41,232 nucleotides of DNA from a virus: positions 1 to 41,232 of IMG/VR virus record IMGVR_UViG_3300045988_082369; one strand, given 5' to 3'. Numbering within the stretch: position 1 is the stretch's first letter; every line of letters starts with the position of its first letter. The position numbers and the translations under genes were made by a program. Shown here piece after piece: positions 17,616-32,035 of the stretch. The notes under the pieces are model-generated. The model was not told where the DNA came from. It saw nothing but the letters and a program-made list of their open reading frames with translations, and searched no databases.

Positions 17616-17919
17616 CCTCAACCTCTCTGAATTTATCAAGTTTTGCTATAAAATCCTTCACTTCCTCTAAGGAATAGACAACAGCACAAGCAGCCCCTGC
17701 TGACTTCCAACGCCTTAGATTGATAAGTTGTTTCTTGCTAGCTTTATTCCCGTGGTCAGGGGTCTTAACCTCCAGCCTGATGAATCTACCCTTATAACAA
17801 GCAAATATGTCAGCTTTTCCTGAGCTCATTGCTGACCCGTGGGTCTTTTCAGCTTGACAACCGTGCAACCCATTCAAGTAAGCCAATATTGAGGCTACAA
17901 TTGTGGATTCTATTGCCAT
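17602..17919 (-). CDS. VRR-NUC nuclease
   Basis: 105 aa with D...ExK (ADIFACYKGRFIRLEVK). Pairing with SNF2 is typical. Confidence 0.8.
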   Translation of the reverse strand: MAIESTIVASILAYLNGLHGCQAEKTHGSAMSSGKADIFACYKGRFIRLEVKTPDHGNKASKKQLINLRRWKSAGAACAVVYSLEEVKDFIAKLDKFREVEDVRA

Positions 17920-18335
17920 TCTTCGATACCTCTGAGACCTCGCTCAAAATCAAACAGGTCGAATCCAAGCCTTCCCACCCAATACATGTAACCCCTATCG
18001 TGAGAAATTGCTTTATCGTCTATATATAGGTCAGCATACACCTTGCGATTGTCGTTACCTGTTAGGGTCTTAGACTCAATGACATTCTCATTAACTGCGT
18101 TAAACTCTAGTCCGTAGGACTTGCAGAATTCAACTGCTTCTTGTGCAAGGTCATTATCACGACAAGTCCACAAGATAAGTTTAACCCCCATTTTACTGAG
18201 ATTTTTCAGAACCGCTATCATTTGAAGGTTAGGTTCTCCAATCTCAGGATAGTTGTCTTTAACAATTGTGCCGTCAAAATCCACAGCTACAATCTTAGGT
18301 AGACTTGAAAAGTCTGTTGTACGTTGCTCTTGCAT
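17910..18335 (-). CDS. HAD-superfamily phosphatase-like protein
   Basis: DxDGT motif (VAVDFDGTIV) and a distal DD (YIDDKA). Confidence 0.6.
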   Translation of the reverse strand: MQEQRTTDFSSLPKIVAVDFDGTIVKDNYPEIGEPNLQMIAVLKNLSKMGVKLILWTCRDNDLAQEAVEFCKSYGLEFNAVNENVIESKTLTGNDNRKVYADLYIDDKAISHDRGYMYWVGRLGFDLFDFERGLRGIEEWQ

Positions 18336-18714
18336 TGGCTTTTAACTCCCTTCCAATCTGCTCTGTAACCCATACACCTGCCCAACCGTGACTGTCAATA
18401 ATGGCATCCGTTGTCATGTACGGGTACACTTTTTTGTATCTATCAACAATTAAGTCTTTAATTAACTTGATATCTAAAGATGTTTCGAGTTGGATGCTTA
18501 CATTAAATTCTTGTAAAGCCCAACGCTCTATGACATCTTTCATGTCTCGTTTTCTCAATCCAAACAACTTGAGATATTCCCTCAAGACCCTTGAATTGAC
18601 GTAGCAAAAATGGTGTGCCTTTGGCTTATCTCCAGGAAACTTGGAAACGGTCACATATATCTTTGTTTTACACGTCATTTCAGAGAACTCAGGCACAGGT
18701 CTTATCGTACTCAT
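18295..18714 (-). CDS. Hypothetical protein
   Basis: 139-aa ORF. Its ATG overlaps the upstream stop (ATGA). Confidence 0.5.
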   Translation of the reverse strand: MSTIRPVPEFSEMTCKTKIYVTVSKFPGDKPKAHHFCYVNSRVLREYLKLFGLRKRDMKDVIERWALQEFNVSIQLETSLDIKLIKDLIVDRYKKVYPYMTTDAIIDSHGWAGVWVTEQIGRELKANARATYNRLFKST

Positions 18715-19415
18715 TTTGCCTCCGTGTCAGGGCGGTCTAGGAACTTGTCAAGGTCTCTTTGATATAAGTGTAAAGACCCTGCTATATGAGTGTAAGACCC
18801 TATACCAACACCCAATTCCATCGCCATGCGAATCTGAAAACACGTGAAGTTAAACACATCATATGGGAATCCGAACCAAACATCATTACTTCTCATATAA
18901 GTTGTTAAAAACAGCTTGCCCTCACGGATGAAGAACTGAAGACACACAGTGCAAGGTGTATCCTTAGTTTTGTAGTCCATCGGATTTTTAATATGAATTA
19001 CAGCCTGTCTACTGTTAGGGTCAGCCTTGAGAAGATTCTTCACATACTCCCATTGGTCAAACCCATAGAATTTATGTATCTTATGACCGTAATTAGAGTT
19101 GACAACTTCCCCGTCATCACTCATTCTATCCCAAGCCTTAGTGTAATTTTGAATACCTTTAAGGGTATTGTCAGCAGCTAGATACCACATCAACTCACCA
19201 ATCATGTACTTCTTGCTGAGCTTTCTCAAGTCAGATTCAACTATATTGTTTCTAGGGTCATCAATAATTGTGACCGCATTGATAATTTCAGCTGCTACGT
19301 TCCCGTCTCTTGAGGATTGAATATCTTGACCCGTGGACATGTCAAGCAGCATGTGAAACCATGATTCCCAAGCCTCAGTTGCATTATTAACAGTAACTTG
19401 TTTATTAATCAGCAC
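18711..19415 (-). CDS. ThyA-family pyrimidine dNMP hydroxymethylase/methylase (resembles T4 gp42)
   Basis: Aligns without gaps to the ThyA core: PCTVCLQFFIREGKLFLTTYMRSNDVWFGFPYDVFNF. Catalytic Cys155 is at 18951-53. Asp186 (18858-60) sits at the Asn177-equivalent position. Also NSNYG and DPNSRQ as in T4 gp42. GTG start with an AGAGGGGG SD. Confidence 0.8.
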   Translation of the reverse strand: MLINKQVTVNNATEAWESWFHMLLDMSTGQDIQSSRDGNVAAEIINAVTIIDDPRNNIVESDLRKLSKKYMIGELMWYLAADNTLKGIQNYTKAWDRMSDDGEVVNSNYGHKIHKFYGFDQWEYVKNLLKADPNSRQAVIHIKNPMDYKTKDTPCTVCLQFFIREGKLFLTTYMRSNDVWFGFPYDVFNFTCFQIRMAMELGVGIGSYTHIAGSLHLYQRDLDKFLDRPDTEAK

Positions 19416-20298
19416 ACCAGACCCCCTCTACAAAATTCACTTCAATGTTGTTAGTTTTGGCATATTGATACTCTGCCTTAGCCCCCTTGGAACTTTCCCA
19501 GCCAGGCAGCATATAGATAGAGTCGCAAGACTTCAGCAGGTGGAGACAAATAACCATGTAGTCCTCCCAGCCACAGATTTTAGGTAACTCTACATCGGCT
19601 GGATTAACAACAATCCAATCGGGGCACTCAAGTTTAATGCGATTCTCTATTTTTTTGAACCTCTCCTTGAAATCCGTTGTTCCTGTTATTTTCCCACTAA
19701 TATACACACGTTTAGGGGACTTAGGAACGGGGTTTGGTAAATCTTCCCTCTGAGATACTGCTTTTAGCAACATATTCGCCATCATATACGCCACATCTTC
19801 GTAAATCCAATGGCTGCGTTTCCAATCATTTGGGGGCAGTTTTATTGTTAAATCGTAAGAGCACTTGCCATCATTGACCCCCCAACGGTCTATTTCGTTA
19901 GGGTCAGCCTTGAGGTCTCTTTCAACAAGAATTGTGTATATCCAAGTGTTCTTCCCATCTTCGTACTTTTCCCTGAGGTCTTTAAACCTCTTAGGGTCTC
20001 TAACATGATAAAATGTGATATTGAGCCCGTCTCTAGGTCTTAAGATGCTGTCTTCCCAAGTTTTTAAAAGACCCTTAGTCTCCATCCAATCCACAATGTC
20101 TGCCAACAACTTGCGGGTTTCTTCATCTCGGGAATTATCCCAGCCCAGTGTTTTCAAGGCTTGTTTTGCAAGGTCTGACCTGTGGTAGTTGTGAACCTCT
20201 AAATTGAATGTTATTTCATACAAATGTTTAGTCACATGTTTTACAAGAGTATCTTTGCCAACGCCAGATTCTCCGTTGATTAAAAATATTAAATTCAT
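19405..20298 (-). CDS. Fusion of a T4 gp1-like dNMP kinase (aa 1 to about 165) and DUF4406, a nucleoside 2-deoxyribosyltransferase-like domain (aa about 197-297)
   Basis: N-terminus MNLIFLINGESGVGKDT (compare T4 Dnk MKLIFLSGVKRSGKDT). C-terminus VYISGKITG...NPA...W.DYM..CL.LL..CD.IYMLPGWE.S.GA..E matches the DUF4406 pattern. Confidence 0.7.
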   Translation of the reverse strand: MNLIFLINGESGVGKDTLVKHVTKHLYEITFNLEVHNYHRSDLAKQALKTLGWDNSRDEETRKLLADIVDWMETKGLLKTWEDSILRPRDGLNITFYHVRDPKRFKDLREKYEDGKNTWIYTILVERDLKADPNEIDRWGVNDGKCSYDLTIKLPPNDWKRSHWIYEDVAYMMANMLLKAVSQREDLPNPVPKSPKRVYISGKITGTTDFKERFKKIENRIKLECPDWIVVNPADVELPKICGWEDYMVICLHLLKSCDSIYMLPGWESSKGAKAEYQYAKTNNIEVNFVEGVWCAD

Positions 20299-21879
20299 TT
20301 AGCCCTCCTTGATTATCTCTAAGAACTTTTCAACACAGTCTTTTTTCTTCCAATTGCTATTATCAACAACTTGTACATTAAATCCTGCAGTTTTGAACTT
20401 CTCAATGCCACGTTCCATCGTTCGATATTTACCCTCAACTAGGCTTTCATTTATGGCTTTACCACCATTCCGCTTGTATATTCGCTTTATACAAGTTTTT
20501 AGCGGAGGCATAAAGTACAAAATTTTGGTTTTTAAGCCACGTTTTTCTTCCAACTCAGTAAATAGGTCAGCATATGTCCTAAAAATCGTACTTACCACTA
20601 TTCCTTCAAAGATTACGGTGTACTCTGGATAAGCCTTTAGTACATACTTTAGCGACTTGCGAACCGTTGCCCCGTCTTTCAGAGAATCTACACCACCACA
20701 TTTGTTCGAGTATTTACCTAAGGCAACTATTTTGTAATTTGGATATACCGTTGCAATTATTGTGTTCTTGCCGTTTACAGGCTTTTTAACCTCAAACACA
20801 TCAGGGTCTAGTTCTCTAAGCAATATCAATGGTGTGGATTTTCCAGCCCCGTTTGTACCTCTAATGTTTATAATTTGAGTGTGTGCGCTTTTAGCAGATT
20901 TAGCAGTCTCCGCTCCAGTCAGCCCTTGTTCAATAAACATTTTCTTTCTGCCTTTCCTTACACCTGCCCAATCATTGTGCTCACCTAAGAATCTTACATC
21001 AAACAACTTTTCTCTTATGTTAAAAACTTGTTCCCAATCCTTCTGATATTGAGGGAATACTTGTTGATAATTGATAAGTTGTTCTAATTCTCTATCGTGA
21101 TGATATCCTGCATATCTTGAGGATTTAAACAGATTCCTAAAGCTACACAATTTTCCTGCAAACATATTAATGTCGTTGGGTTGCTCTGGGTAAGTTGATG
21201 CTATAACTGTTTGAACCTCTTTTAGCATAGGCTCAAGAAGTTGTCTATGCTCTTCAGAGATTTTACCTGTCTTGTCAAAAATGTTTGCTTCCCCATCTAA
21301 ATACATGAGGTTAAGTAAAGCGGATGTCAGATTACTGCAAGAGTTCCAATCTAACTCTGAAGGCTCAATGAATTTTGTGCCTAAATAGTCATTAAGATAT
21401 AGGATACTCTCCATAAACAATTCTACAGAGAATCTTCCTGTATATCTCAACTTTAACAACCGTCTAAATACTTGATTATAACCCTTCTCATTTTGCTCAA
21501 AATGCTTAAGCCACTTCAAAGGCTTATTGTGGGTTACAGCTTTAAATTGTTGTATTAATTCAACAAACCAATCCATGTTTTTTGCGTATTTTCTTGAGCT
21601 GTTAAACTCCAGAAAAGTTTTGTTATTTTCCCAATAAAACTCCGTATCATCCAATACCTGTTCATGATTATGCCCAAGTATAATACAAGTCAGTTCGTTA
21701 TATGTACACGACATATACCAACACATCCATACAGCCTTATCTTTTGACACTTGGTTTATTTTAATGTATTCGCCTAAGACCCTGAAGTGCAAACTTGGGA
21801 CGGCATGTTGATACTCTACAAACTTCTTTAATCTCCAAGGGTGACCGTAGTCACCCTTGATATTATATAAATCAGCCAT
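20299..21879 (-). CDS. Fusion protein: N-terminal helical domain of about 330 aa (possibly aGPT-Pplase-like) plus a C-terminal P-loop kinase domain (candidate DNA 5-hydroxymethylpyrimidine kinase)
   Basis: Walker A GTNGAGKST at 20833-20859 (aa 341-349). The N-domain shares G.F....LF.[DE] and LLNL motifs with ORF 31034-32035. The ATG at 21879 overlaps the upstream stop (TAATG). Function is inferred. Confidence 0.5.
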   Translation of the reverse strand: MADLYNIKGDYGHPWRLKKFVEYQHAVPSLHFRVLGEYIKINQVSKDKAVWMCWYMSCTYNELTCIILGHNHEQVLDDTEFYWENNKTFLEFNSSRKYAKNMDWFVELIQQFKAVTHNKPLKWLKHFEQNEKGYNQVFRRLLKLRYTGRFSVELFMESILYLNDYLGTKFIEPSELDWNSCSNLTSALLNLMYLDGEANIFDKTGKISEEHRQLLEPMLKEVQTVIASTYPEQPNDINMFAGKLCSFRNLFKSSRYAGYHHDRELEQLINYQQVFPQYQKDWEQVFNIREKLFDVRFLGEHNDWAGVRKGRKKMFIEQGLTGAETAKSAKSAHTQIINIRGTNGAGKSTPLILLRELDPDVFEVKKPVNGKNTIIATVYPNYKIVALGKYSNKCGGVDSLKDGATVRKSLKYVLKAYPEYTVIFEGIVVSTIFRTYADLFTELEEKRGLKTKILYFMPPLKTCIKRIYKRNGGKAINESLVEGKYRTMERGIEKFKTAGFNVQVVDNSNWKKKDCVEKFLEIIKEG

Positions 21880-22514
21880 TATTCTTCGTCCCAATCGTCC
21901 CAATCATCGTCATCATCTTCATCCTCAGGTTCAGGCTCAGCCTTCTTTTTGGACTTAGTTGACTTTTTGGATTTAGGTTCAGACTTCTTGGATTTAGTTG
22001 ACTTCTTAGACTTCTTTGGCGGTTCTTCTTCTTCCTCCTCGTCATCATCTTCATCATCCTCGTCCTCAAGCTCATCTTCATCCTCATCATCTTCGTCATC
22101 GTCATCTTCATCAATGTCGTCCTCATCGCCTGTGATAGCAGCTCCAACCTTGCGGGTCTCAGCAACTCTTGCTCTGTCCTTACCCTCATACTCCTCGTAC
22201 TTAACAGTTAGCTCAAGGGTCTTGCCTTCCATCTTGTCAAGGTCAATCTGAACTCTGCCATCAGCCTTCATTCCAATAGCCTCAAGTAGACCCTTCAGTT
22301 TCCACAAAGCAGTGTCAATTAGAGGGTAGTTCTCAATAACCTTGCAGCCCTTAGAAGCACCAGCAATAACAACAAATGTTACCTTGAACATATCGTTACC
22401 GCCCTGTGATACGGTCTCCTCAATCTTCTCAATCTTAACCTTGTGAACTCCTTCAGCAGGCATGTTAAAGGTCTCAACTCCAGTAAAATCCAACTTCATC
22501 TTTCTCTTTGCCAT
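21879..22514 (-). CDS. DUF669-type putative ssDNA-binding protein with a long charged tail
   Basis: N-terminal DUF669-like core next to a Sak4-like gene. Tail of D/E runs, a KSKKSTKSKK duplication, and terminal DDDWDDWDEE. Confidence 0.65.
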   Translation of the reverse strand: MAKRKMKLDFTGVETFNMPAEGVHKVKIEKIEETVSQGGNDMFKVTFVVIAGASKGCKVIENYPLIDTALWKLKGLLEAIGMKADGRVQIDLDKMEGKTLELTVKYEEYEGKDRARVAETRKVGAAITGDEDDIDEDDDDEDDEDEDELEDEDDEDDDEEEEEEPPKKSKKSTKSKKSEPKSKKSTKSKKKAEPEPEDEDDDDDWDDWDEE

Positions 22515-22528
22515 TGTTTTGTCTCCTC

Positions 22529-23257
22529 TTAGTTTTCTTCAATGTGCATTAACTTCTGTAACTTATCAAATGTTGGGTTAAATATCCGTCTAGGAATCTT
22601 AGTTGACTTAGTTGACTGGAATTTTGTCCAGTAGTATGGGTTAGACCCTATATCAATTGCGTGCTTAGCAACTGTTTGGACTTCTCCATCTTTTTCAACC
22701 TCCTTTTCCACAACGATTGTGTGTAACCCATAATTGACCATTCCTTCAAGGTACGTTCTCGCACCCTTAGACACCGACACACGTACATCAGGTAGCAGCT
22801 CATCCTCAAGACCCTCGATAGAGTCGATTGCCTCGTGACCGCTGAAAATTACCCACTTTTTCTTGGACAGCTTGGACATCTGCCTGATGAGTTCTTCCGT
22901 CTCGGTCAGCAGGTCTCCCCATGCTTGCTGCGTCATTTTTTTGTTTTTTGATGTAATATTCTCAGTTTTCCACTCGTTGACTATGAGTGAAAATGTGTCG
23001 AAAAATACGCTCTTATATTTCTTGTCTTTGGATAATTCCTTGAACAACTCCTTGAAGTCCTTAGTCTCTTCAACTTCCAGCACGTCAATTCCCTTGACAT
23101 CTCGAATTGCAGTGACCCCGTCATCTCCTATCTTAACATATAGCATAGGCTTAGGGAATGTAGCCCCTAGAGTTGTTTTGCCTGAGCCTGATTTACCATA
23201 TAGGCAAACCAATCTCCCGTTATCTACAGTGCTGATGTCTTTGACTTTTTCTAACAA
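22529..23257 (-). CDS. AAA_24 / Sak4-like recombination ATPase
   Basis: Walker A YGKSGSGKTT near the N-terminus. 242 aa. TTG start with a GGAGGG SD. Confidence 0.8.
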   Translation of the reverse strand: MLEKVKDISTVDNGRLVCLYGKSGSGKTTLGATFPKPMLYVKIGDDGVTAIRDVKGIDVLEVEETKDFKELFKELSKDKKYKSVFFDTFSLIVNEWKTENITSKNKKMTQQAWGDLLTETEELIRQMSKLSKKKWVIFSGHEAIDSIEGLEDELLPDVRVSVSKGARTYLEGMVNYGLHTIVVEKEVEKDGEVQTVAKHAIDIGSNPYYWTKFQSTKSTKIPRRIFNPTFDKLQKLMHIEEN

Positions 23258-23266
23258 TTAGCCCTC

Positions 23267-24214: not shown

Positions 24215-24219
24215 TTTTC

Positions 24220-24615
24220 TTACTCCTCGTCAAAATCCTCGAACTCGTCCTCATCGTCAAGTTCATCAAGCTCTTCCACAGGCTCAACCTTTTTTGCTTT
24301 TTTAGCCTTCTTAGCAGCCTTACCTTCCTCAGCCTTCTTAGACTTCTTTGCCTTCTTAGCCTTCTCTAAAGGGTTCACATAGCTGCCGTCATCCTTGATG
24401 ATGGAATTAGCAAATCTCTCCTTACCCTCTTCAATATTGAGCTGCTGACCCGTCTTGCGACTGAACACTCTCAGCTCTCCGTTAGACTTCTGAACTGTGA
24501 TGTTCTTGTCAGTTGCCTTAGCGATTGTGAATACGCCAAGTGGCATTCCAGTAAACGACTTCATGATGACCTTGTCACCCTTCTTTAGATTTTTAAGACT
24601 CATGGTCTCCTCCAT
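24220..24615 (-). CDS. Protein with a conserved FTGM-type domain, a Lys-rich linker and an acidic tip. First gene after promoter P1.
   Basis: Its domain is paralogous to that of 32983-33318. Tail KKAKKSKKAEEGKAAKKAKKAKK...DEFEDFDEE. Alternative ATG at 24603. Confidence 0.6.
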   Translation of the reverse strand: MEETMSLKNLKKGDKVIMKSFTGMPLGVFTIAKATDKNITVQKSNGELRVFSRKTGQQLNIEEGKERFANSIIKDDGSYVNPLEKAKKAKKSKKAEEGKAAKKAKKAKKVEPVEELDELDDEDEFEDFDEE

Positions 24616-24657
24616 TTCTGCCCTTCTAAGGGCGGTTCAAATTATTAACGTAGCCTT

Positions 24658-24686
24658 ATCATATACTAATAGCTATGTGAAGTAAA
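24658..24686 (-). promoter_or_regulatory. SigmaA-type promoter P1 (early promoter family)
   Basis: On the minus strand: GGGGTTTACT, 17 bp, TATGAT, with A/T tracts upstream (24687-24725). Confidence 0.6.
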
Positions 24687-24783
24687 CCCCTAAATTTAAA
24701 TTTTTTACAAGTAAATTTTCACATAACTTATCAATACCTTTAAATATCCACAAAAATCTTAGATTATTGCTGTAAAAATTAAA

Positions 24784-26511: not shown

Positions 26512-26647
26512 CACCTTCCGAATTTTTTGAGCAAGACCCTTCAGATAGGTTAATTGCTGCTCTACTGAATATTTGAGCTAGTTTCTGAGTTATCGTCAAG
26601 TTAGATTTAAGCTCTTCAGCAGTAGCCTCAAAGTAAAATATTTTCAT
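26495..26647 (-). CDS. 50-aa hypothetical protein
   Basis: AAGGAGG SD. The ATG overlaps the upstream stop (ATGA). Confidence 0.4.
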   Translation of the reverse strand: MKIFYFEATAEELKSNLTITQKLAQIFSRAAINLSEGSCSKNSEGDDRED

Positions 26648-27012
26648 CTCTTTACCTCCTTCACACATTTCGTGCATCCGTCTAGCATAAACTTGTTTTT
26701 ATCACCACAGTATCCATATGTACCGCTTTCTGTCACGGAGTTGTTGAATTTTTGGCAATCTCCGCAGATTCCACCTGTAAAACAGCCCTTATCCCCAAAG
26801 TAGCTGTACAATTCAAACAACAACCCTTGAGCCTTCTTATAGCTCAGTTTTTGACCGTTGTGGAATTTTAAGCCTTTTTTACCTTGAGAAACCTGAGCTT
26901 TAATTAACCGCTCAACAGCTTTTAGCAGCAACTCCAAGTCATTCCAATCTCGATTGTCAGGGTCATGTATAAGATTGATGGGATAAGGTCTAACTTTAAC
27001 CTTTTTGTACAT
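26644..27012 (-). CDS. Cys-rich hypothetical protein
   Basis: 122 aa with CFTGGICGDCQKF...YCGDKNKFMLDGCTKC. Confidence 0.5.
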   Translation of the reverse strand: MYKKVKVRPYPINLIHDPDNRDWNDLELLLKAVERLIKAQVSQGKKGLKFHNGQKLSYKKAQGLLFELYSYFGDKGCFTGGICGDCQKFNNSVTESGTYGYCGDKNKFMLDGCTKCVKEVKR

Positions 27013-27014
27013 AG

Positions 27015-27218
27015 CTAGACCCTCAATACATTGGCCAGCTTACGCACAGCTCGTTCATACTCTCGTGGAGTTATGTCCAGCTCTTGCAGGTGTCTCTTAT
27101 AATACTCATACACCCTCAGGTCACCCTTTTTATCTCGATTAGCTGAGGCTAACACACGTTGAATCTTCTGCAGTTCCCGTTCTCTCATCTCATCCTCCGT
27201 TCTTACACTTCTACGCAA
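27015..27218 (-). CDS. Hypothetical basic helical protein
   Basis: 67-aa ORF packed tightly within the operon. Confidence 0.45.
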   Translation of the reverse strand: MRRSVRTEDEMRERELQKIQRVLASANRDKKGDLRVYEYYKRHLQELDITPREYERAVRKLANVLRV

Positions 27219-27436
27219 TCAGGAAATACTTCAGCTGTCAGGGTCGTGAGGTATTTCTCATCAACTTGGCCTTGAGCTTGCAATTTCACCTTGTAGTTGT
27301 TGTTTCCACAATCTACTTTAGCAATCATCTTCCCGTTGGCATTCTTCACATTTTGGTAGTTGGAAAACCAATAGAATCCTTCATAGTTGGGAATTGGTCT
27401 CCACACTTCTTTACCTACAAACAATTTAGTCTTCAT
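27203..27436 (-). CDS. NUMOD4-only protein (truncated homing-endonuclease N-terminal module)
   Basis: VWRPIPNYEGFYWFSNYQNVKN matches the NUMOD4 pattern. No HNH or GIY-YIG domain follows. Confidence 0.6.
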   Translation of the reverse strand: MKTKLFVGKEVWRPIPNYEGFYWFSNYQNVKNANGKMIAKVDCGNNNYKVKLQAQGQVDEKYLTTLTAEVFPDCVEV

Positions 27437-29360
27437 CTTCTTTATTTAACTCAACCCCCTCCCAGCAATATTCACGATTCTTACCCCGAACCTCTTTATA
27501 CCTAGCCCTCATTAATCTTGCAAATGAATGACTTTTATGTGCTTCTCTACCCGTATTTATACAAAATTCCACATAAGTCTGATAAAGTTTGGACTTAGAC
27601 ACCATACCCCCACTCGACTCTGTGCATCTAGTTGTTATAAATGCGTGTATAGTGTCTGAGTCCTGCCTTAATGATTCTACTAACTGATTAGATGTGTCTG
27701 TTCTTGGGATTTTCTTCAGAGGCAGCCTATTCAGCAGAGTCGGAATCAGCTGCTCAATACTCTCATCACTACACAGCCTATTCACATATTCATCATTTAA
27801 AAACAGTTCTCTATCCATTTTCAACACTCGCATCCTCTTATAGAACGCATCTGATTTTTCCTCGAGTTGTAGTGGTAGCTGATTAAAGCTGAACAACAGC
27901 TTAGCAAAACTTGTGAAGAAAAATGGCTCTTTACCTTTTTTCTCGTGCATTATTTGGTCACCGCCTGTAATTTTCTTAAGATTTTCAATACTTGTCAAAG
28001 GCAGCGACTTGTTGTCAGCACAAGAATTTAGCAACTTACCATATAGCTGTGAGGGGTAAAATCTAGCATTCAACTCGTGCATCGCTAGAGCGGAAGTGTT
28101 GACTTTCCCAACTAAGTTCTCAATAAACCTGATGAGAACAGATTTACCTGTGTTAGACCTACCAACTAATATCATGAAAGTTTTCAGCCCGTAGTTGGTT
28201 GTCATGCAATAAGCAACGTAGTCTAACAACATACCAACCTCAGATTTACTCAATTTAGCTTGATTTACCAAAAAATCATACATGTAGGTGCTCTTGAATG
28301 GCACTCTTTTCTTAACCTCGTGCGGAATCTGAATTGTTTGGAGATACTTGCTGTCGTGAGGTAACAACTTCTTCTTGTTAATATCCCACACCCCGTTCTT
28401 AAAGTTGATTAGATTCGTGTGTGAGTTGAGGTCTTGGGCTGATTTTTGAATCCTAGCATCATCCGCCAACAATCGGTAGCATTCCATCAACTTAGATTGC
28501 TGAATTAGATTATCAAACTCAACCATGTTCTTTATGGTGTTTCTAACGTGAGATGATGCCTCTACATATACCCCATCTTGGTAACGGTAGCAGTCTGACC
28601 CTAGAACAAATGCTTTGCCCTCGTTAACAAAGTAGTCGCAAACCGCTCTGCTGTTAATTTGTGAGGGTTTGCCTTTATCTGTATAGATGACATACGGATT
28701 AGTGAACCCTTCAGTAGCCTTGTATCTTTTGGTGTTATCAACAATCTTAGCGAGCTCATCCTCATCCATCGGGTCTTTAAACACGTAGGTGTTGATAAGT
28801 TCCGCCATCTCATCCAGCTCATCCTCGCTCGCACCTCGATTCTTATATGCCATGAGGTGAGTGAATAAGGTTGAATTTCTACCCTCCCCCTCACTGAGGT
28901 TTAGCAAGCTCTCCTTACACCCCATCAGAGGGGTAAACTCTCGTGGTAGCTCAGCAATTGTCTTGGTGTTATTGAAAGCTCTCTCCGAACTTCCGAACGG
29001 GAGAATGACATACCCCTTCTCAGCACACCTATAATCACATTTAAGACCGAAAGGAAGCACCATTCCAACCTTTTGTGGAAAAGTCTCATCAGTCTTAAAA
29101 TATAGATGAAGTCCTTTTGGTGTCTTACACATTAGGGTGTTGAGCTTGAGCTTACGGATAATCTTCAGCGCAACCTCTTTGCCCTCATCTATATCGACTA
29201 TGATGTATCCTTGGCGAACCCACCAGCCAATCTGACCTCCTTGGGATATGTGGTCTAAGGCTTGTTGATTATTGACTATGCTAGGGTCTATCCTCTTTTT
29301 ACCCTCACACCTGACATAGCTGTTCTGACCAATTAAACTGTCAAAATCTTTAAATTTCAA
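27426..29360 (-). CDS. Primase-polymerase / SF3 helicase (P4 alpha / D5-like)
   Basis: N-terminal prim-pol pattern (IIVDIDEG...GLHLYFK), central D5_N-like region, and Walker A GRSNTGKS. TTG start with a GGAG SD. Confidence 0.9.
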   Translation of the reverse strand: MKFKDFDSLIGQNSYVRCEGKKRIDPSIVNNQQALDHISQGGQIGWWVRQGYIIVDIDEGKEVALKIIRKLKLNTLMCKTPKGLHLYFKTDETFPQKVGMVLPFGLKCDYRCAEKGYVILPFGSSERAFNNTKTIAELPREFTPLMGCKESLLNLSEGEGRNSTLFTHLMAYKNRGASEDELDEMAELINTYVFKDPMDEDELAKIVDNTKRYKATEGFTNPYVIYTDKGKPSQINSRAVCDYFVNEGKAFVLGSDCYRYQDGVYVEASSHVRNTIKNMVEFDNLIQQSKLMECYRLLADDARIQKSAQDLNSHTNLINFKNGVWDINKKKLLPHDSKYLQTIQIPHEVKKRVPFKSTYMYDFLVNQAKLSKSEVGMLLDYVAYCMTTNYGLKTFMILVGRSNTGKSVLIRFIENLVGKVNTSALAMHELNARFYPSQLYGKLLNSCADNKSLPLTSIENLKKITGGDQIMHEKKGKEPFFFTSFAKLLFSFNQLPLQLEEKSDAFYKRMRVLKMDRELFLNDEYVNRLCSDESIEQLIPTLLNRLPLKKIPRTDTSNQLVESLRQDSDTIHAFITTRCTESSGGMVSKSKLYQTYVEFCINTGREAHKSHSFARLMRARYKEVRGKNREYCWEGVELNKEDED

Positions 29361-29364
29361 GCCT

Positions 29365-29733
29365 TTACTCCAATTCTCTAAGTTTTGTTGTTATCTCCAT
29401 GCCTTCGTCACTTGCTAGCCACTTCTTAACTCGCCCCATCTTAAGACCTAACTCAACTGATAAATCTTCATCACTTATCTGAAAAATCTCAAGGACATGG
29501 TCAAGAACGATGATAACGTCAGCAACTTCCCCAGCTACAGCTTTTCTAGTGTCAGCTACAGCCTTCTCGTGACTTCCGTATCTCATGTACTTTAGTAACT
29601 CTTTAGCTAATTCACAGCACTCTTCAGCAGCTACAGCAATTTGATTGCGTTCTCCGAACTTCTCACGAGCTATTTTGAGTGCCTCGATATCATCTGAAGA
29701 TAACAGATTTCTATGTATAATTGATTTTCTCAT
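29365..29733 (-). CDS. MazG-like nucleotide pyrophosphohydrolase
   Basis: All-alpha protein of 122 aa with AAEECCELAKEL and GEVADVIIVLD metal-binding helices. Confidence 0.75.
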   Translation of the reverse strand: MRKSIIHRNLLSSDDIEALKIAREKFGERNQIAVAAEECCELAKELLKYMRYGSHEKAVADTRKAVAGEVADVIIVLDHVLEIFQISDEDLSVELGLKMGRVKKWLASDEGMEITTKLRELE

Positions 29734-29737
29734 GCTT

Positions 29738-30229
29738 TTACCTCTCTACGTCTATATATCGCCAGTCATCAACGTGCGTGACCTTAACATTACCCTCGTC
29801 AAATATACGTTCAGTCTCCTGTGATATAACCTGACCTCTGCCATAATACACGTGCTTTATACCTGCGGTCACAATTGCTCTAGCACAGGCTTCACAAGGG
29901 TATCGGGTCACGATGATTGTTGACCTTGATATCTGAATCCCGAACTTAGCTGCGGTTGCGATAGCATCAATCTCAGCATGGACTGCCCTGCAATCGGAAG
30001 GCAATCTGTGTTCCTTGCTGTCTTCTCCATACAGCTCAACTCGATGACACCCTGAGACCTTGCAAGTTTTTGGAATAGTTCTATTTACACCATAAATCTC
30101 GTGAATTGATTGCTTAGAGCTTTTAGGCTGAACAATTACACAGCCAACAGCAACTTTTACGCAACCTGAGGTGTCATCTGCGTGAGATTGAGCACGGTCT
30201 AAAAATTCAATAACTTCATCTTTTTTCAC
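29738..30229 (-). CDS. dCMP deaminase (ComEB/T4 Cd-like)
   Basis: Zinc motifs VHAEIDAI and RYPCEACARAI. Confidence 0.9.
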   Translation of the reverse strand: MKKDEVIEFLDRAQSHADDTSGCVKVAVGCVIVQPKSSKQSIHEIYGVNRTIPKTCKVSGCHRVELYGEDSKEHRLPSDCRAVHAEIDAIATAAKFGIQISRSTIIVTRYPCEACARAIVTAGIKHVYYGRGQVISQETERIFDEGNVKVTHVDDWRYIDVER

Positions 30230-30231
30230 AA

Positions 30232-30573
30232 TTAACCTCTTTTCTTCCTCTTCACAAGCACTTTGCCCTTAGCTGGCACGGGTCTATAATAATCATCAAA
30301 ATGCTTAAGCACTTTTATTGTGCCCTTAGGAGTGTCAAGGTCTACTCCTACAGCTTGAGTATACTTGTATTTCTTCATCTCAGGGCTGTACACAACCTCT
30401 TTGTATTTCTTACCGCAGTCACAGATAAACTTGGCTTTAACCTTGTTATCTACAACGTCATCCCCAACTGACCATAGTTCAGCCCCGCATTCTAGGCACT
30501 TCCCCTTAAAACTGCGGATGAACCTTCCGCTGTTGAGGAACTTGTATAATGCTGTAACGTATCTACTTTCCAT
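30232..30573 (-). CDS. Zinc-ribbon hypothetical protein
   Basis: CLECGAEL...CDCG pairs. 113 aa. Confidence 0.5.
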   Translation of the reverse strand: MESRYVTALYKFLNSGRFIRSFKGKCLECGAELWSVGDDVVDNKVKAKFICDCGKKYKEVVYSPEMKKYKYTQAVGVDLDTPKGTIKVLKHFDDYYRPVPAKGKVLVKRKKRG

Positions 30574-30582
30574 GGATTCCTC

Positions 30583-30699
30583 CTACTTCTTAGCCTTAGA
30601 CTTGTCATCACCATCTGTGCTGTTCTTAGTGACAAACACAGTCAACGCCATTGTTGTTACGCAAAGCATTGCAACTACTGAAATTACTACAATTGACAT
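30583..30699 (-). CDS. 38-aa single-pass membrane peptide (absent from the ORF track)
   Basis: GGAGG SD (30706-30710) 6 nt before the ATG. Sequence MSIVVISVVAMLCVTTMALTVFVTKNSTDGDDKSKAKK. Fills an otherwise empty 130-nt gap. Confidence 0.45.
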   Translation of the reverse strand: MSIVVISVVAMLCVTTMALTVFVTKNSTDGDDKSKAKK

Positions 30700-30702
30700 A
30701 TC

Positions 30703-31047
30703 TTACCTCCCAAAATTCTCATCAGCTTTAACAATATACGTTCCGTTATCTGCCCTAACTTGCTCAGGGCTAGCAATTATCACAACCGTTCCAGCCTTTA
30801 TGACCCCTTTGTCGGTCACAACATCCTCTTCATAGACCACGGCAGATGGGTGTGGCTTAGCTGCCACGTAGTTATCTATCGAGGAATGGCTGTATGACCT
30901 ATACTCTTTAATCACCATTTTTTGATGGCTAATTCCCTTTTTCTGGTGTTTAATCACGCAGGTTGAGTAAAGGAGCAGCAGCTCTAAAATAATTGCCGTA
31001 ATAGCCAAAATAAAGGCTATAAGCTGTACACGTTTAATCTCTTTCAT
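30703..31047 (-). CDS. Membrane-anchored hypothetical protein
   Basis: AAGGAGG SD 6 nt before the ATG at 31047. N-terminal TM helix (LIAFILAITAIILELLLLY). Confidence 0.55.
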   Translation of the reverse strand: MKEIKRVQLIAFILAITAIILELLLLYSTCVIKHQKKGISHQKMVIKEYRSYSHSSIDNYVAAKPHPSAVVYEEDVVTDKGVIKAGTVVIIASPEQVRADNGTYIVKADENFGR

Positions 31048-32035
31048 CAGATTCCTCCTTAAATGGCTTATAAGTGTTCTTTGGTTTTCCCAGCCCGTAG
31101 TAGGCTTTGTAGTATTTTTGTAACTCACAGAAACAGTTCTCCAGCGACATCACGTTCATCTTTTGGTCGTACTCAGGAAGGTCTGTAAATATCTTGGAAA
31201 AATCAAGTTCTTTGTTAATTACATCTACCAACCAAAACAAGCACTCTTCATAGTTTAAACCTCCTTTGCTTGTAAATAACAAGTTTAACCCAGCTTTACA
31301 TCCAGGACCAGCTACAACAAAAGAGTTTTCACTTACAGGAAACTCTGGAATATAGGTAAAGTCTACAAACAATTGATACCCCATAAAAGCTCCAATGCCT
31401 TCGAATTTCTTAAGGGTTTGATATACCTGATAACCTCCACCAGTAATGTGCTTAGGAGACAACTTTTGGAGTGACCTATGCTCAATTAAGTGCTTTATAA
31501 GCCATAGCACTCTCATAGGCACGCAATCCTCTCCTTCGCAATATCGCTCTAGCCCCATTTTCAATCCTGAAGTATAAAACACATTGGTGAAGTATAGATG
31601 ATCAGAGTCACTACACAATTCTCGATACTCCTCAGGGTCGAAATTCTTAGTGAATTTAATTGGCAGCCCCAATTTCTCTGCAGTTTGGTGTCGGTTGAAT
31701 AGCCTAAACATAACTGTATTGAGCAGCTTATCTCGATAAGACAGCTCAGGGTTTGTTGAAATATGCTCTATCAACCACTTAGATTCTCTGTCGTGTTCTC
31801 TCCGTATGTTAGTGAACCTCCAATGTTGTAAGACAGGGTCATCTGTCCACGGCTGTGACTCTCCTGCCTCTTTCGCCAGTCTAATGGCGTACCTCTCCTG
31901 AATATAGTATAGAAGCATTCTGTACACGTCCATGTCTAATTGTGGACAATCAGACCTTATTTTGTCTACGTTCACCAGTCGTGAACAGAATACATCCCCA
32001 CTCTTGTTTTGCAATAGTTGTGCCCTCCTTAACAT
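31034..32035 (-). CDS. Candidate DNA base-hypermodification transferase (aGPT-Pplase-like). Start is ATG 32035 or SD-backed TTG 32014.
   Basis: Motifs ERYAIRLAKEAGESQPWTDDPVLQHWRFTNIRREHDRESKW and FEGIGAFMGYQLFVD. The family assignment is from memory of that family's pattern. AAGGAGGG (32023-32030) lies 8 nt before the TTG at 32014. Confidence 0.5.
   Translation of the reverse strand: MLRRAQLLQNKSGDVFCSRLVNVDKIRSDCPQLDMDVYRMLLYYIQERYAIRLAKEAGESQPWTDDPVLQHWRFTNIRREHDRESKWLIEHISTNPELSYRDKLLNTVMFRLFNRHQTAEKLGLPIKFTKNFDPEEYRELCSDSDHLYFTNVFYTSGLKMGLERYCEGEDCVPMRVLWLIKHLIEHRSLQKLSPKHITGGGYQVYQTLKKFEGIGAFMGYQLFVDFTYIPEFPVSENSFVVAGPGCKAGLNLLFTSKGGLNYEECLFWLVDVINKELDFSKIFTDLPEYDQKMNVMSLENCFCELQKYYKAYYGLGKPKNTYKPFKEESDERD

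What the first reader, a model, noticed from the sequence alone, without database searches (positions are those of the whole stretch)
17910..32035. Two-locus gene set predicting a replaced or hypermodified pyrimidine in virion DNA
Locus 1 (17910-21879) encodes a HAD phosphatase-like protein, an unknown 139-aa ORF, a ThyA-family hydroxymethylase-like enzyme, a T4 gp1-like dNMP kinase fused to DUF4406, and a 526-aa protein ending in a P-loop kinase. Locus 2 (29365-32035) encodes a MazG-like NTP pyrophosphohydrolase, a dCMP deaminase and a 333-aa protein whose motifs resemble alpha-glutamyl/putrescinyl-thymine pyrophosphorylase (aGPT-Pplase). This follows the logic of the 5-hydroxymethylpyrimidine pathways known from phages SP10, PhiW-14, M6 and ViI. 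Those pathways run through pool clean-up, dNMP hydroxymethylation, kinase, incorporation, and then DNA-level kinase plus pyrophosphorylase substitution. Here I see no PLP, radical-SAM, ATP-grasp or glycosyltransferase tailoring gene. There are two Pplase-like domains and two unusual fusions. The final base cannot be deduced from sequence and may be a new variant.
Basis: partly seen in the sequence, partly recalled or inferred. Interest (0 to 1): 0.8.

Follow-up and report, generated by a model that had tools for sequence, protein, structure and literature searches.

The report
Phage DNA pyrimidine hypermodification gene set
An uncultured 41-kb phage carries the genes needed to make a hydroxymethyl-pyrimidine nucleotide, build it into its DNA and then swap the hydroxyl for another chemical group; unexpectedly, the first enzyme looks built for cytosine while the DNA-level enzymes belong to families known only from thymine modification.

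Summary
The two key proteins fall in the predicted families.

- **526-aa protein, C-terminus:** a 5-hmdU DNA kinase (Pfam PF18748).
- **526-aa protein, N-terminus:** a divergent amino-acid:DNA transferase (ADDT/aGPT-Pplase2). It keeps the catalytic Cys, but Gly-Lys replaces the metal-binding Glu-Thr.
- **333-aa protein:** a clade-1 paralogue (PF18723, PUGT-like fold).
- **Whole genome:** I found no PLP, radical-SAM, ATP-grasp or glycosyltransferase gene.

The cassette is conserved in a large group of uncultured 35-55-kb phages. The transferase and kinase are separate adjacent genes in some of them.

The new point concerns the ThyA homologue. It matches T6 dCMP hydroxymethylase at all 12 active-site positions compared. 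It differs from four dUMP hydroxymethylases of known or presumed hmU phages at three of them (W80, T147, D177).

- **Best reading (about 0.5):** dCMP is hydroxymethylated, and the conserved deaminase turns 5hm-dCMP into 5hm-dUMP. The hmU in DNA is then phosphorylated and substituted.
- **Main rival (about 0.3):** the kinase and transferase act on 5hmC.

This is a new variant of a known kind. The final base cannot be deduced from sequence.

The parts
17910..18335 (-). HAD-type phosphatase, 141 aa. It is a candidate dNMP (dTMP) 5'-nucleotidase for pool clean-up; this function is inferred.
   Evidence: DFDGT motif. NF046079 scores 7.4e-33 (below cutoff) and phrog_1238 scores 8e-31. It is conserved two genes from ThyA (after the 139-aa ORF) across the clade. 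A 34%-identical homologue lies just downstream of the dUMP hydroxymethylase gene (one small ORF between) in Lysinibacillus phage LysYB1.
18295..18714 (-). Conserved 139-aa ORF of unknown function between ThyA and HAD.
   Evidence: No Pfam, PHROG or NCBIfam hit. Homologues of 28-35% identity sit at the same position in L002-L008.
18711..19415 (-). ThyA-family pyrimidine hydroxymethylase, 234 aa, with the dCMP-hydroxymethylase active-site signature.
   Evidence: PF00303 scores 1.4e-27. At 12 E. coli-numbered positions it is identical to T6 gp42: W80, D143, C146, T147, D169, D177 and six others. The dUMP hydroxymethylases of PaMx11, ViI, SP8 and LysYB1 have M/A80, N147 and N177, carry a one-residue insertion, and are 346-394 aa long.
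19744..20298 (-). N-terminal P-loop kinase domain of the 297-aa fusion protein; a probable dNMP kinase.
   Evidence: Walker A motif GESGVGKDT. Weak AAA_18 and guanylate-kinase hits. 28% identity to the dNMP kinase of Enterocloster phage PMBT24. Stand-alone homologues sit next to ThyA in L002 and L007.
19405..19743 (-). C-terminal part of the same protein, containing the DUF4406 domain (residues 197-287). DUF4406 belongs to the nucleoside 2-deoxyribosyltransferase-like superfamily; its function is unknown.
   Evidence: PF14359 scores 1.3e-25 and phrog_355 scores 4e-26. The fusion is found in only three protein clusters at 63-90% identity. It is present in L001 and L036.
20905..21879 (-). N-terminal domain (residues 1-325) of the 526-aa protein: a divergent amino-acid:DNA transferase (ADDT / aGPT-Pplase2) domain of the 'G-K-x-C' subtype.
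   Evidence: A profile search found 218 representatives, and 26 of 33 sampled members hit PF18724. BFVD fold matches to ADDT-domain proteins have target TM 0.50-0.76. Cys245 aligns with the catalytic Cys247 of PaMx11 gp46. The E-T of the E-T-x-x-C motif is replaced by G-K.
20299..20901 (-). C-terminal domain (residues 327-526): 5-hydroxymethylpyrimidine DNA kinase (5-HMUDK family).
   Evidence: PF18748 scores 1.6e-28. 38% identical to the SP10 5-hmdU DNA kinase at rmsd 2.2 A; it also matches the PhiW-14 kinase. 41% identical to the Bacillus phage YungSlug homologue.
29365..29733 (-). MazG-like all-alpha NTP pyrophosphohydrolase, 122 aa. It is a candidate dTTPase/dUTPase or dCTPase.
   Evidence: phrog_2245 scores 1.4e-12. 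There is no Pfam hit and a weak YpjD match. It is conserved next to the deaminase in relatives.
29738..30229 (-). dCMP deaminase, 163 aa.
   Evidence: PF00383 scores 6e-15 and phrog_174 scores 3e-27. HAE and PCxxC zinc motifs are present. It was found in every relative whose stored stretch reaches that far.
30232..30573 (-). 113-aa CxxC...CxC zinc-ribbon-like ORF, conserved between the deaminase and the clade-1 gene. Membership of the system is uncertain.
   Evidence: No family hit. Homologues are present in L001, L002 and L007.
31034..32035 (-). Clade-1 aGPT-Pplase paralogue (Pfam HMUDK_hel), 333 aa, with an invariant E299-N-C-F-C303-E304 motif.
   Evidence: PF18723 scores 2.4e-59. The AF2 model has pLDDT 88.7. 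The best PDB hit is 8z2n_B, PaMx11 PUGT, with probability 0.97 and TM 0.38-0.43. The motif is invariant in 28 homologues. 35% identical to Ackermannviridae homologues.
33973..34281 (-). Nmad4 (nucleotide-modification-associated domain 4) protein, 102 aa. It may be an accessory component.
   Evidence: PF18756 scores 6.2e-12, 46 bits against a cutoff of 27. phrog_6231 scores 5.5e-13.

Best explanation
The phage replaces a pyrimidine with a 5-hydroxymethyl derivative before replication and then converts it, on the DNA polymer, into a 5-(X-methyl) base. I rate this general claim at about 0.85.

The specific route I favour is rated at about 0.5. All enzyme activities and both the donor and the product are inferred. 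What is shown is family membership, motif content, gene order and conservation.

1. The MazG-like NTPase and the HAD phosphatase strip competing nucleotides from the pool.
2. The ThyA homologue, which has a dCMP-hydroxymethylase active site, makes 5hm-dCMP.
3. The conserved dCMP deaminase converts 5hm-dCMP to 5hm-dUMP. This reverses the order of the classical route, in which deamination comes before hydroxymethylation.
4. The P-loop kinase of the 297-aa fusion and host NDP kinase give 5hm-dUTP, and possibly some 5hm-dCTP.
5. The phage family-A polymerase incorporates it into DNA.
6. The kinase domain of the 526-aa protein phosphorylates the 5-CH2OH group in DNA.
7. The fused ADDT-like domain attacks C6 with Cys245, expels phosphate, and lets an amine or hydroxyl donor (an amino acid or polyamine) add to the exocyclic methylene.

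In this ADDT subfamily a Lys (Gly242-Lys243) sits where characterised enzymes hold a divalent metal through Glu-Thr. The chemistry is therefore probably metal-independent. There is no decarboxylase, radical-SAM, lyase or acetyltransferase gene. The adduct would then be the final base, as in SP10 (glutamyl-T), PhiW-14 (putrescinyl-T) and SH-Ab 15599 (diaminopropanyl-T). The 333-aa clade-1 paralogue keeps a Glu...Cys motif. It may be a second transferase, or the activity that returns unmodified sites to thymine.
For: Family placement:
- PF18748 and PF18723 score above their curated cutoffs.
- The N-terminal domain links to PF18724 by profile search and by fold. The catalytic Cys is conserved.

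Conservation:
- The cassette is syntenic in L001-L008 and L036. The ADDT gene lies immediately upstream of the kinase gene in many unrelated contigs.

Hydroxymethylase type:
- The enzyme has D143 (a hydroxymethyl product) and D169 (not a 5-hydroxy-dCMP synthase), together with D177, T147 and W80 as in T6 gp42. The residue rules come from PMC8670742 section 11 and PMC13326640 sections 24 and 28.

Why hmU rather than hmC is the favoured DNA substrate:
- All characterised HMUDK and ADDT enzymes act on 5-hmdU (PMC8989533; PMC13458397).
- Lysinibacillus phage LysYB1 is a Spounavirinae phage whose hydroxymethylase is 58% identical to that of hmU phage SP8 and is Asn-type. It carries an ADDT domain of the same subtype, 43% identical, with the identical GKLCSFRNLFK motif. 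It also has a kinase, a clade-1 paralogue and a HAD homologue just downstream of its hydroxymethylase (one small ORF between).
- The five-gene set of deaminase, NTPase, hydroxymethylase, HMUDK and Pplase2 is what PMC13458397 reports as co-expressed in E. coli to obtain dapT formation.
- The deaminase was found in every relative whose stored stretch reaches that region.
Against: - No phage is known to make 5hm-dUMP by deaminating 5hm-dCMP.
- In experimentally cytosine-modified metagenomic contigs, Asp-type ThyA co-occurs with a MazG-like NTPase and a dCMP deaminase (PMC8670742). Locus 2 plus ThyA is therefore equally the signature of a cytosine-replacement module.
- Several sister phages carry a gene related to T-even HMC glucosyltransferase and to TET-associated glycosyltransferase right after the kinase. 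This hints at hmC in their DNA.
- The window's ADDT domain does not itself reach significance against PF18724.
- That domain lacks the Glu that is essential in M6 gp51, ViI gp247 and 15599 Pplase2.
- The nucleotide kinase, MazG and HAD assignments are weak.
Confidence: 0.5

Rival explanations
1. Cytosine route. The ThyA homologue, the MazG-like dCTPase, the dNMP kinase and the deaminase work as in T4, where the deaminase only feeds dTTP synthesis. C is replaced by 5hmC. The HMUDK-family kinase and the ADDT-like domain then phosphorylate and substitute 5hmC. The result would be a 5-(X-methyl)cytosine, the first cytosine counterpart of the thymidine hypermodification pathway.
For: - The 12-of-12 match to T6 dCMP hydroxymethylase.
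- Asp-type ThyA, a MazG-like NTPase and a deaminase co-occur in cytosine-modified contigs.
- Sister phages carry a homologue of HMC/TET-associated glycosyltransferases.
- Of 23 IMG/VR HMUDK loci that hold a ThyA homologue, 19 have the dCMP-type signature.
- The Cys-C6 addition chemistry works on cytosine in other enzyme families (established knowledge).
Against: - The library search for a 5hmC DNA kinase or 5-phosphomethylcytosine found nothing relevant.
- The DNA-level enzymes are 35-43% identical to those of hmU phages. The ADDT active-site motif is identical to that of hmU-type LysYB1.
- Canonical E-[ST]-x-L-C ADDTs also occur with the dCMP-type enzyme. The metal site of that motif contacts thymine O4 in the PUGT structure.
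- A dNMP phosphatase next to ThyA has no role in a T4-like scheme.
Confidence: 0.3
2. Classical order despite the Asp. The deaminase makes dUMP, and the ThyA homologue hydroxymethylates dUMP directly, as in SPO1, ViI and 15599. The rest follows the known thymidine pathway.
For: This is the only experimentally established route (PMC8989533, PMC13458397). Specificity rules taken from a few residues can fail in divergent enzymes.
Against: Three independent discriminating positions (80, 147, 177), the missing insertion after D169 and the short length all side with dCMP hydroxymethylase. This holds throughout the clade. N177D switches substrate preference experimentally (PMC8670742 section 11; PMC13326640 section 24).
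Confidence: 0.1
3. Only the nucleotide-pool module is active, so the virion DNA carries plain 5hmC or 5hmU. The Glu-less ADDT-like domain and the clade-1 protein would then be DNA-binding or regulatory relics, not transferases.
For: The Glu that is essential in characterised ADDTs is absent. No clade-1 activity has ever been shown.
Against: - The Cys and about 100 other positions are invariant across 33 homologues of the domain.
- Adjacency to, or fusion with, the kinase is conserved across many lineages.
- The loss of Glu/Thr is accompanied by a conserved Lys at the same spot across the subfamily, which suggests replacement rather than decay.
Confidence: 0.05

Closest known systems
Thymidine hypermodification pathways without tailoring steps: Bacillus phage SP10 (alpha-glutamyl-T), Delftia phage PhiW-14 (putrescinyl-T), Acinetobacter phage SH-Ab 15599 (diaminopropanyl-T)
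   Same: - The gene logic is the same: dCMP deaminase, NTPase, ThyA-family hydroxymethylase, 5-HMUDK and an aGPT-Pplase/ADDT.
- There is no decarboxylase or radical-SAM step after transfer.
- SP10 also fuses its kinase to a Pplase-like domain (gp186).
- The kinase domain is 38% identical to the SP10 kinase.
   Different: - The hydroxymethylase here is dCMP-type, not dUMP-type.
- The domain order of the fusion is reversed, and the fused domain is clade-2-like rather than clade-1.
- The ADDT lacks the Glu-Thr metal site.
- The phage is a 41-kb siphovirus-like phage, not a large myovirus.
- It has additional HAD, DUF4406 and Nmad4 genes.
Pseudomonas phages PaMx11 / M6 / YuA and Salmonella phage ViI (ADDT = Pplase2 = PUGT, solved structures 8Z2M/8Z2N)
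   Same: - The same helix-hairpin-helix-like fold family and the same catalytic Cys.
- The ADDT is paired with a 5-HMUDK.
- ViI also has a clade-1 paralogue about 35% identical to the 333-aa protein.
   Different: - Those enzymes have E-T-x-x-C and need a divalent metal.
- They are followed by PLP, radical-SAM, FAD or acetyltransferase tailoring enzymes, which are absent here.
- Sequence identity to the window's ADDT domain is only 12-16%.
T4/T6 pre-replicative 5hmC module (gp42 dCMP hydroxymethylase, gp56 dCTPase, cd deaminase, gp1 dNMP kinase)
   Same: The ThyA homologue shares all 12 compared active-site positions with T6 gp42 and is of similar length. An NTPase, a deaminase and a nucleotide kinase accompany it.
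   Different: - Overall identity to gp42 is only 29%.
- T-even phages glucosylate 5hmC and have no DNA kinase or ADDT.
- This phage has no glycosyltransferase, although sister phages have a candidate.
Lysinibacillus phages vB_LfM_LysYB1/YB2 (uncharacterised cluster, Herelleviridae)
   Same: This is the closest cultured homologue of the ADDT-like domain (43% identity, identical GKLCSFRNLFK motif). A kinase gene is adjacent, and a clade-1 paralogue and a HAD homologue are present.
   Different: - Its hydroxymethylase is the SP8-like dUMP type.
- Its ADDT domain is fused to a C-terminal domain with a PHROG hit to radical-SAM 'DNA repair photolyase', not to the kinase.
- It is a 144-kb myovirus.

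Membership tests
[quoted passage not shown] | The HMM score is above Pfam's gathering threshold, with a P-loop kinase fold. | tested here: met
   100 bits against a cutoff of 27, residues 327-494. Walker A motif GTNGAGKST. Fold matches to the SP10 (38% identity, rmsd 2.2 A) and PhiW-14 kinases and to polynucleotide kinases.
[quoted passage not shown] | Transfers one phosphate from ATP to the 5-CH2OH of 5-hmdU in DNA. | not testable with these tools
   This needs the purified protein with SP8 (hmU) and T4 gt-minus (hmC) DNA, followed by LC-MS for a +80 Da nucleotide.
[quoted passage not shown] | Co-occurs with a dUMP hydroxymethylase (stated in PMC5889632, Fig. 2 legend). | tested here: not met
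   The accompanying ThyA homologue has the dCMP-type signature. The same is true of 19 of 23 IMG/VR HMUDK loci that hold a ThyA homologue.
Amino-acid:DNA transferase (ADDT / aGPT-Pplase2, PF18724) | A sequence-profile match. | tested here: inconclusive
   The window domain alone gives no PF18724 hit at E<0.01. 11 of 33 close homologues hit weakly. A profile of the family retrieves members of which 26 of 33 hit PF18724, down to 2.5e-26.
Amino-acid:DNA transferase (ADDT / aGPT-Pplase2, PF18724) | The PUGT-like two-helix-bundle (HhH-related) fold. | tested here: met
   The model has pLDDT 88. BFVD matches to ADDT-domain proteins of Mycobacterium phages Fortunato and LilMcDreamy and of Salmonella phage 38 have target TM 0.50-0.76 and rmsd 3.7-4.5 A. 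The PDB search of the whole model listed only kinase-type matches among its top 50, so 8Z2N was not seen for this domain.
Amino-acid:DNA transferase (ADDT / aGPT-Pplase2, PF18724) | An invariant catalytic cysteine. | tested here: met
   Cys245 aligns with PaMx11 Cys247 and the Det7/ViI Cys. It is invariant in 33 close homologues and at least 90% conserved in diverse ones.
Amino-acid:DNA transferase (ADDT / aGPT-Pplase2, PF18724) | The essential Glu (and Thr) four residues before the Cys, which binds the divalent metal. | tested here: not met
   The window has A241-G242-K243-L244-C245. The whole subfamily has [AVI]-G-K-x-C or N/P-K-x-C. The Glu is required in M6 gp51 and ViI gp247 and in 15599 Pplase2.
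Amino-acid:DNA transferase (ADDT / aGPT-Pplase2, PF18724) | Encoded next to, or fused with, a 5-HMUDK. | tested here: met
   It is fused in the window, L001, L007, L036 and about 20 protein clusters. It is an adjacent gene in L002-L006, L008, L017-L019, L030 and others.
Clade-1 aGPT-Pplase (Pfam HMUDK_hel, PF18723) | The HMM score is above the gathering threshold. | tested here: met
   201.5 bits against a cutoff of 25, covering 3-274 of 281 profile positions. The fold is nearest to PUGT 8z2n_B.
dCMP hydroxymethylase (T4 gp42 type, within PF00303) | Active-site signature, E. coli numbering: Cys146; Asp/Glu143 (hydroxymethyl product); Asp177 (cytosine); Asp169 retained (not a 5hoC synthase). 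| tested here: met
   The window has D152, C155, T156, D178 and D186, which correspond to D143, C146, T147, D169 and D177. It is identical to T6 gp42 at 12 of 12 positions. The rules come from PMC8670742 and PMC13326640.
dCMP hydroxymethylase (T4 gp42 type, within PF00303) | Converts dCMP to 5hm-dCMP. | not testable with these tools
   This needs the in vivo incorporation assay or an in vitro assay with dCMP and dUMP.
dCMP deaminase (PF00383) | An HMM match and the HAE / PCxxC zinc motifs. | tested here: met
   55 bits against a cutoff of 25. HAEIDAI and PCEAC are in the sequence. Activity on 5hm-dCMP was not tested.
MazG-like NTP pyrophosphohydrolase | A profile match and acidic metal-binding motifs. 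| tested here: inconclusive
   PHROG matches only, at 1.4e-12 and 1.5e-8. There is no Pfam or NCBIfam hit. The YpjD (2gta) match has E = 0.048. EExxE and ExxD motifs are visible in the sequence.
T4 gp1-like dNMP kinase | A profile or sequence match to characterised dNMP kinases. | tested here: inconclusive
   Only weak P-loop hits and 26-29% identity to an annotated dNMP kinase of an Enterocloster phage. The position next to ThyA is conserved.

The most novel reading that the evidence does not exclude
The HMUDK-family kinase and the ADDT-like transferase of this large, uncultured phage group act on 5-hydroxymethylcytosine. A variant of this reading is that a single dCMP hydroxymethylase plus a 5hm-dCMP deaminase supplies both 5hmC and 5hmU, so that both pyrimidines of the virion DNA are non-canonical. 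Either way, the phospho-activation chemistry known only for thymidine would extend to cytosine. The Glu-less, Lys-containing ADDT subtype would then be a metal-independent version of the enzyme.
Probability: 0.3. Interest if true: 0.85.

Novelty: new variant of a known kind. Interest (0 to 1): 0.62.

Why it matters
Post-replicative pyrimidine hypermodification protects phage DNA from restriction, and its enzymes are being developed as DNA-labelling tools. Every characterised pathway starts from a dUMP hydroxymethylase and uses a metal-dependent Glu-Thr...Cys transferase.

This phage pairs the DNA kinase and transferase with a dCMP-type hydroxymethylase. So do 18 of 22 other IMG/VR loci that hold a ThyA homologue (19 of 23 sampled, one being this phage's near-twin contig). 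This subgroup also uses a transferase without the metal site. If so, one of two things is true:

- There is an unrecognised metabolic route, 5hm-dCMP deamination.
- The chemistry also operates on cytosine.

Both are directly testable with published assays, and either would revise how such gene clusters are annotated. The group looks common in the metagenome-derived protein and contig collections searched here. Its hosts are probably Bacillota, so its DNA chemistry also bears on sequencing bias and on phage-host studies.

Tried and rejected
- **Near-identical DNA search:** a megablast of the 14-kb region against 50,697 phage records found no match.
- **Pairwise and low-depth profile comparisons:** BLASTP of the two Pplase-like domains and hhalign of their shallow alignments showed no similarity. 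Sequence and profile searches of PDB with either family did not reach 8Z2M/8Z2N. Homology was established only through a deeper profile search plus fold comparison.
- **PDB fold search of the full 526-aa model:** the listed matches were almost all kinase-type and said nothing about the N-terminal domain. No further structure jobs were available to model the domain alone.
- **Agathobaculum phage AB434P2:** it has the closest cultured ThyA (58% identity), but none of my protein searches of the phage collection with the other system proteins listed it, so I treated it as an unrelated phage type.
- **Context look-ups for distant ADDT members:** these returned only 2-4-kb contigs. Alignment-based locus searches failed twice for lack of a conserved stretch, so I used a degenerate P-loop DNA pattern instead.
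- **Does the G-K subtype track the dCMP-type hydroxymethylase?** It does not. LysYB1 combines G-K with a dUMP-type enzyme, and many dCMP-type loci carry canonical E-[ST]-x-L-C ADDTs.
- **MetaGPA supplements:** these hold no entry for PF18748, PF18723 or PF18724.
- **The 411-aa orphan (35050-36285):** it is the only large unassigned ORF. It has no hit in Pfam, PHROG, PDB or phage genomes and shows no enzyme-like motif, so I rejected it as a tailoring enzyme.
- **5-hydroxy-dCMP synthase:** rejected because D169 is retained.

Full report
**What the window is**

The 41,232-bp window looks like a complete or nearly complete siphovirus-like phage genome.
- The rightward arm carries small and large terminase, portal, scaffold, major head protein, tail tube, tape measure, Dit, holin and endolysin genes.
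- A single leftward block at about 16.2-36.3 kb carries the replication and nucleotide-metabolism genes: an SNF2 helicase, a VRR-NUC-like nuclease, DUF669, AAA_24, a PD-(D/E)XK nuclease, a family-A polymerase and a primase-helicase.
- An independent IMG/VR contig of 41,303 bp is 93-99% identical at the protein level.
- No phage record matches at the DNA level.
- A RemA-like gene in the window points to a Bacillota host, probably a Clostridia-like one. So do Spo0A_C, sigma-70 region 4 and CW_7 genes in relatives, and the nearest cultured matches in Agathobaculum and Enterocloster phages. This host assignment is an inference.

**Check of the observation**

The Pfam, PHROG and NCBIfam results are as follows.
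- 141 aa: HAD phosphatase (DFDGT motif; BT0820-family model 7e-33, below its cutoff).
- 139 aa: no hit.
- 234 aa: Thymidylat_synt (1.4e-27).
- 297 aa: P-loop domain plus DUF4406 (1.3e-25).
- 526 aa: PF18748 5-hmdU DNA kinase at the C-terminus (1.6e-28).
- 122 aa: MazG-like by PHROG only.
- 163 aa: dCMP deaminase (6e-15).
- 333 aa: PF18723 (2.4e-59).

The two loci lie in the same leftward gene block, separated only by replication genes. Scans of nearly all ORFs of at least 80 aa found no PLP enzyme, radical-SAM enzyme, ATP-grasp, flavin lyase, acetyltransferase or glycosyltransferase. The only large unassigned ORF (411 aa, 35050-36285) is an orphan with no enzyme-like features.

**The two Pplase-like proteins**

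*The 333-aa protein.* This is the clade-1 paralogue, which Pfam now calls 'HMUDK_hel'.
- Its AlphaFold model has pLDDT 88.7.
- Its single meaningful PDB match is the PaMx11 5-PmdU glycinyltransferase (8z2n_B, probability 0.97, TM 0.38-0.43). Weak HhH-glycosylase matches appear further down the list.
- Twenty-eight homologues share an invariant E299-N-C-F-C303-E304 motif. This has the same Glu-to-Cys spacing as the E-T-x-x-C of the characterised transferases.

*The N-terminal 325 residues of the 526-aa protein.* These give no Pfam hit on their own, but three lines of evidence place them.
- They belong to a large family of about 335-aa stand-alone proteins at 50-60% identity.
- A profile of that family searched against 1.8 billion representatives retrieved 218 proteins. 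Of 33 sampled, 26 match PF18724, 'Amino acid:DNA transferase', down to 2.5e-26.
- The full-length model (pLDDT 88) matches annotated ADDT-domain proteins of Mycobacterium and Salmonella phages in BFVD (target TM 0.50-0.76). Its C-terminal domain matches the SP10 and PhiW-14 5-hmdU DNA kinases.

In the alignment with PaMx11 gp46 and a ViI gp247 homologue, Cys245 is the catalytic cysteine. The Glu-Thr pair four residues upstream is replaced by Gly-Lys in this whole subfamily. That pair is essential in M6, ViI and 15599 enzymes, and it holds the divalent metal that contacts thymine O4. I infer that the lysine takes over the role of the metal. This is untested.

**The fusions**

The ADDT-kinase fusion is real. 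It recurs in about 20 protein clusters and in three independent contigs. In L002-L006, L008 and many other contigs, however, the two domains are adjacent, overlapping genes. It is therefore a lineage-specific fusion of a conserved gene pair. SP10 gp186 is a known kinase-Pplase fusion in the opposite order (PMC5889632).

The kinase-DUF4406 fusion is confined to three clusters at 63-90% identity. At the same position, several sister phages have a separate 276-aa gene instead. That gene matches the PHROG family of T-even beta-glucosyl-HMC alpha-glucosyltransferase (2.9e-13) and, weakly, the TET-associated glycosyltransferase Pfam family.

**The unexpected result: the hydroxymethylase is dCMP-type**

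I aligned the ThyA homologue with seven reference enzymes:
- a Bacillus phage thymidylate synthase (Goe3);
- T6 gp42;
- the hydroxymethylases of PaMx11, ViI, SP8 and LysYB1.

Published work gives the diagnostic positions in E. coli numbering (PMC8670742 section 11; PMC13326640 sections 24 and 28).
- Residue 177: Asn for dUMP, Asp for dCMP.
- Residue 143: Leu for methyl transfer, Asp/Glu for hydroxymethyl transfer.
- Residue 169: Asn marks 5-hydroxy-dCMP synthases.
- Residue 147 also discriminates.

The window enzyme has D143, C146, T147, D169 and D177. It is identical to T6 dCMP hydroxymethylase at all 12 positions compared. The four dUMP hydroxymethylases have M/A80, N147 and N177, carry an extra residue after D169, and are 346-394 aa long against 220-251 aa.

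All relatives share this signature. In a scan of IMG/VR with a degenerate HMUDK P-loop pattern, 19 of the 23 loci that held a ThyA homologue were dCMP-type. The four dUMP-type loci include a 143,986-bp contig, the size I recall for the SP10 genome. The dCMP-type loci carry either canonical E-[ST]-x-L-C ADDTs or the G-K/N-K subtype. I found no paper that reports this association. The literature describes HMUDK as co-occurring with dUMP hydroxymethylase. A search for a 5hmC DNA kinase or 5-phosphomethylcytosine returned nothing relevant.

**How it most likely works**

The general scheme is well supported by family membership and conserved synteny: a 5-hydroxymethyl-pyrimidine nucleotide is made, incorporated, phosphorylated on the polymer, and substituted through a Cys-C6 adduct. 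Which pyrimidine is involved is the open point.

I favour a swapped-order thymidine route: dCMP to 5hm-dCMP to 5hm-dUMP by the phage deaminase, then hmU DNA, then 5-PmdU, then the adduct. The reasons are these.
- All characterised HMUDK and ADDT enzymes use 5-hmdU.
- LysYB1 is an SPO1/SP8-like phage with an SP8-type dUMP hydroxymethylase. It has the same G-K ADDT subtype with an identical active-site motif, together with a kinase, a clade-1 paralogue and a HAD homologue just downstream of its hydroxymethylase (one small ORF between).
- The deaminase was found in every relative whose stored stretch reaches that far.
- The five-gene set of deaminase, NTPase, hydroxymethylase, HMUDK and Pplase2 is the set PMC13458397 reports as co-expressed in E. 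coli to obtain dapT formation.

Against this reading:
- 5hm-dCMP deamination is not a known phage route.
- Asp-type ThyA, a MazG-like NTPase and a deaminase together are the signature of experimentally cytosine-modified contigs.
- The sister phages' glycosyltransferase belongs to families known from 5hmC systems.

The main rival is therefore that the kinase and transferase work on 5hmC. A hybrid, in which both 5hmC and 5hmU enter DNA, is not excluded.

The donor molecule cannot be read from the sequence. The residue after the Cys is Ser, where characterised glycine enzymes have Lys and diamine enzymes have Gly. An invariant Arg-Tyr follows ten residues later. Because there are no tailoring genes, the adduct itself is probably the final base.

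**Verdict**

The system is a new variant of a known kind, marked by four features:
- a dCMP-type hydroxymethylase feeding an HMUDK/ADDT system;
- a Glu-less, Lys-containing ADDT subtype fused to its kinase;
- a retained clade-1 paralogue;
- no tailoring enzymes.

Interest is moderate to high, because the mismatch between the hydroxymethylase and the DNA-level enzymes is widespread in metagenomes, appears to be unreported, and can be resolved with existing assays.

Noticed in passing
window 36300-37520: An AT-rich stretch with no ORF of 80 aa or more lies between the leftward early genes and the rightward packaging genes. It holds repeated TTACCTAATTT / TAAAAATAGGTAA motifs in both orientations (for example at 36826, 36875, 36892, 36992, 37206 and 37270) and long TA-rich palindromes (36684-36711, 36993-37113). 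It is probably a replication-origin or regulatory region.
   Followed up: partly
window 24220-24615, 32983-33318, and the C-terminal part of 35050-36285: Three proteins share a small motif of the form 'F.R.TG.Q.N.(K)NP..A'. The 131-aa copy has an acidic/Lys-rich tail and the 111-aa copy has a Rho_N-like N-terminus. The single homologue in relatives hits the 131-aa and 111-aa window copies. Function is unknown.
   Followed up: partly
L007 11611-12441; L008 11594-12427; also L019, L022, L028, L029, L039, L049, L052: Sister phages carry a gene of about 276 aa right after the kinase. It matches the PHROG family of T-even beta-glucosyl-HMC alpha-glucosyltransferase (2.9e-13) and, weakly, Pfam TAGT. 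The window phage lacks it. One metagenomic protein (P0272) fuses a TAGT domain to an ADDT domain.
   Followed up: partly
L009 (Lysinibacillus phage LysYB1, OP628075.1) 8995-13066: A cultured Spounavirinae phage has an unannotated hypermodification cluster: a 639-aa G-K-type ADDT fused to a domain with a PHROG hit to radical-SAM 'DNA repair photolyase', then a 5-HMUDK, then a clade-1 paralogue. All are annotated as hypothetical or 'kinase activity protein'. Its virion DNA probably carries a hypermodified thymine.
   Followed up: partly
L030 8677-11627 (IMGVR_UViG_3300031867_000193): Another phage lineage places a radical-SAM-like gene directly upstream of a G-K-type ADDT and a kinase, followed by a DNA ligase. 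No ThyA homologue lies within 10 kb.
   Followed up: partly
window 21879-22514: The DUF669 protein ends in an extreme low-complexity tail: a long Asp/Glu run followed by a Lys/Ser-rich run. Its stop codon overlaps the ATG of the 526-aa gene (ATGA).
   Followed up: no
window 32133-32384: A RemA-like protein, 83 aa (PF04025, 2e-21). RemA is a Bacillota biofilm/matrix regulator family and is unusual in a phage. It is a possible host-takeover regulator and a clue to the host.
   Followed up: no
window 30703-31128: The mechanically listed 141-aa ORF overlaps the 3' end of the 333-aa gene by 95 nt. The homologue in L001 begins at the residue corresponding to Met28. The real product is therefore probably a 114-aa protein with one hydrophobic helix.
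   Followed up: partly
window 35050-36285: A 411-aa orphan ORF at the far end of the leftward block. It has no match in Pfam, PHROG, PDB sequences or 50,697 phage genomes.
   Followed up: yes
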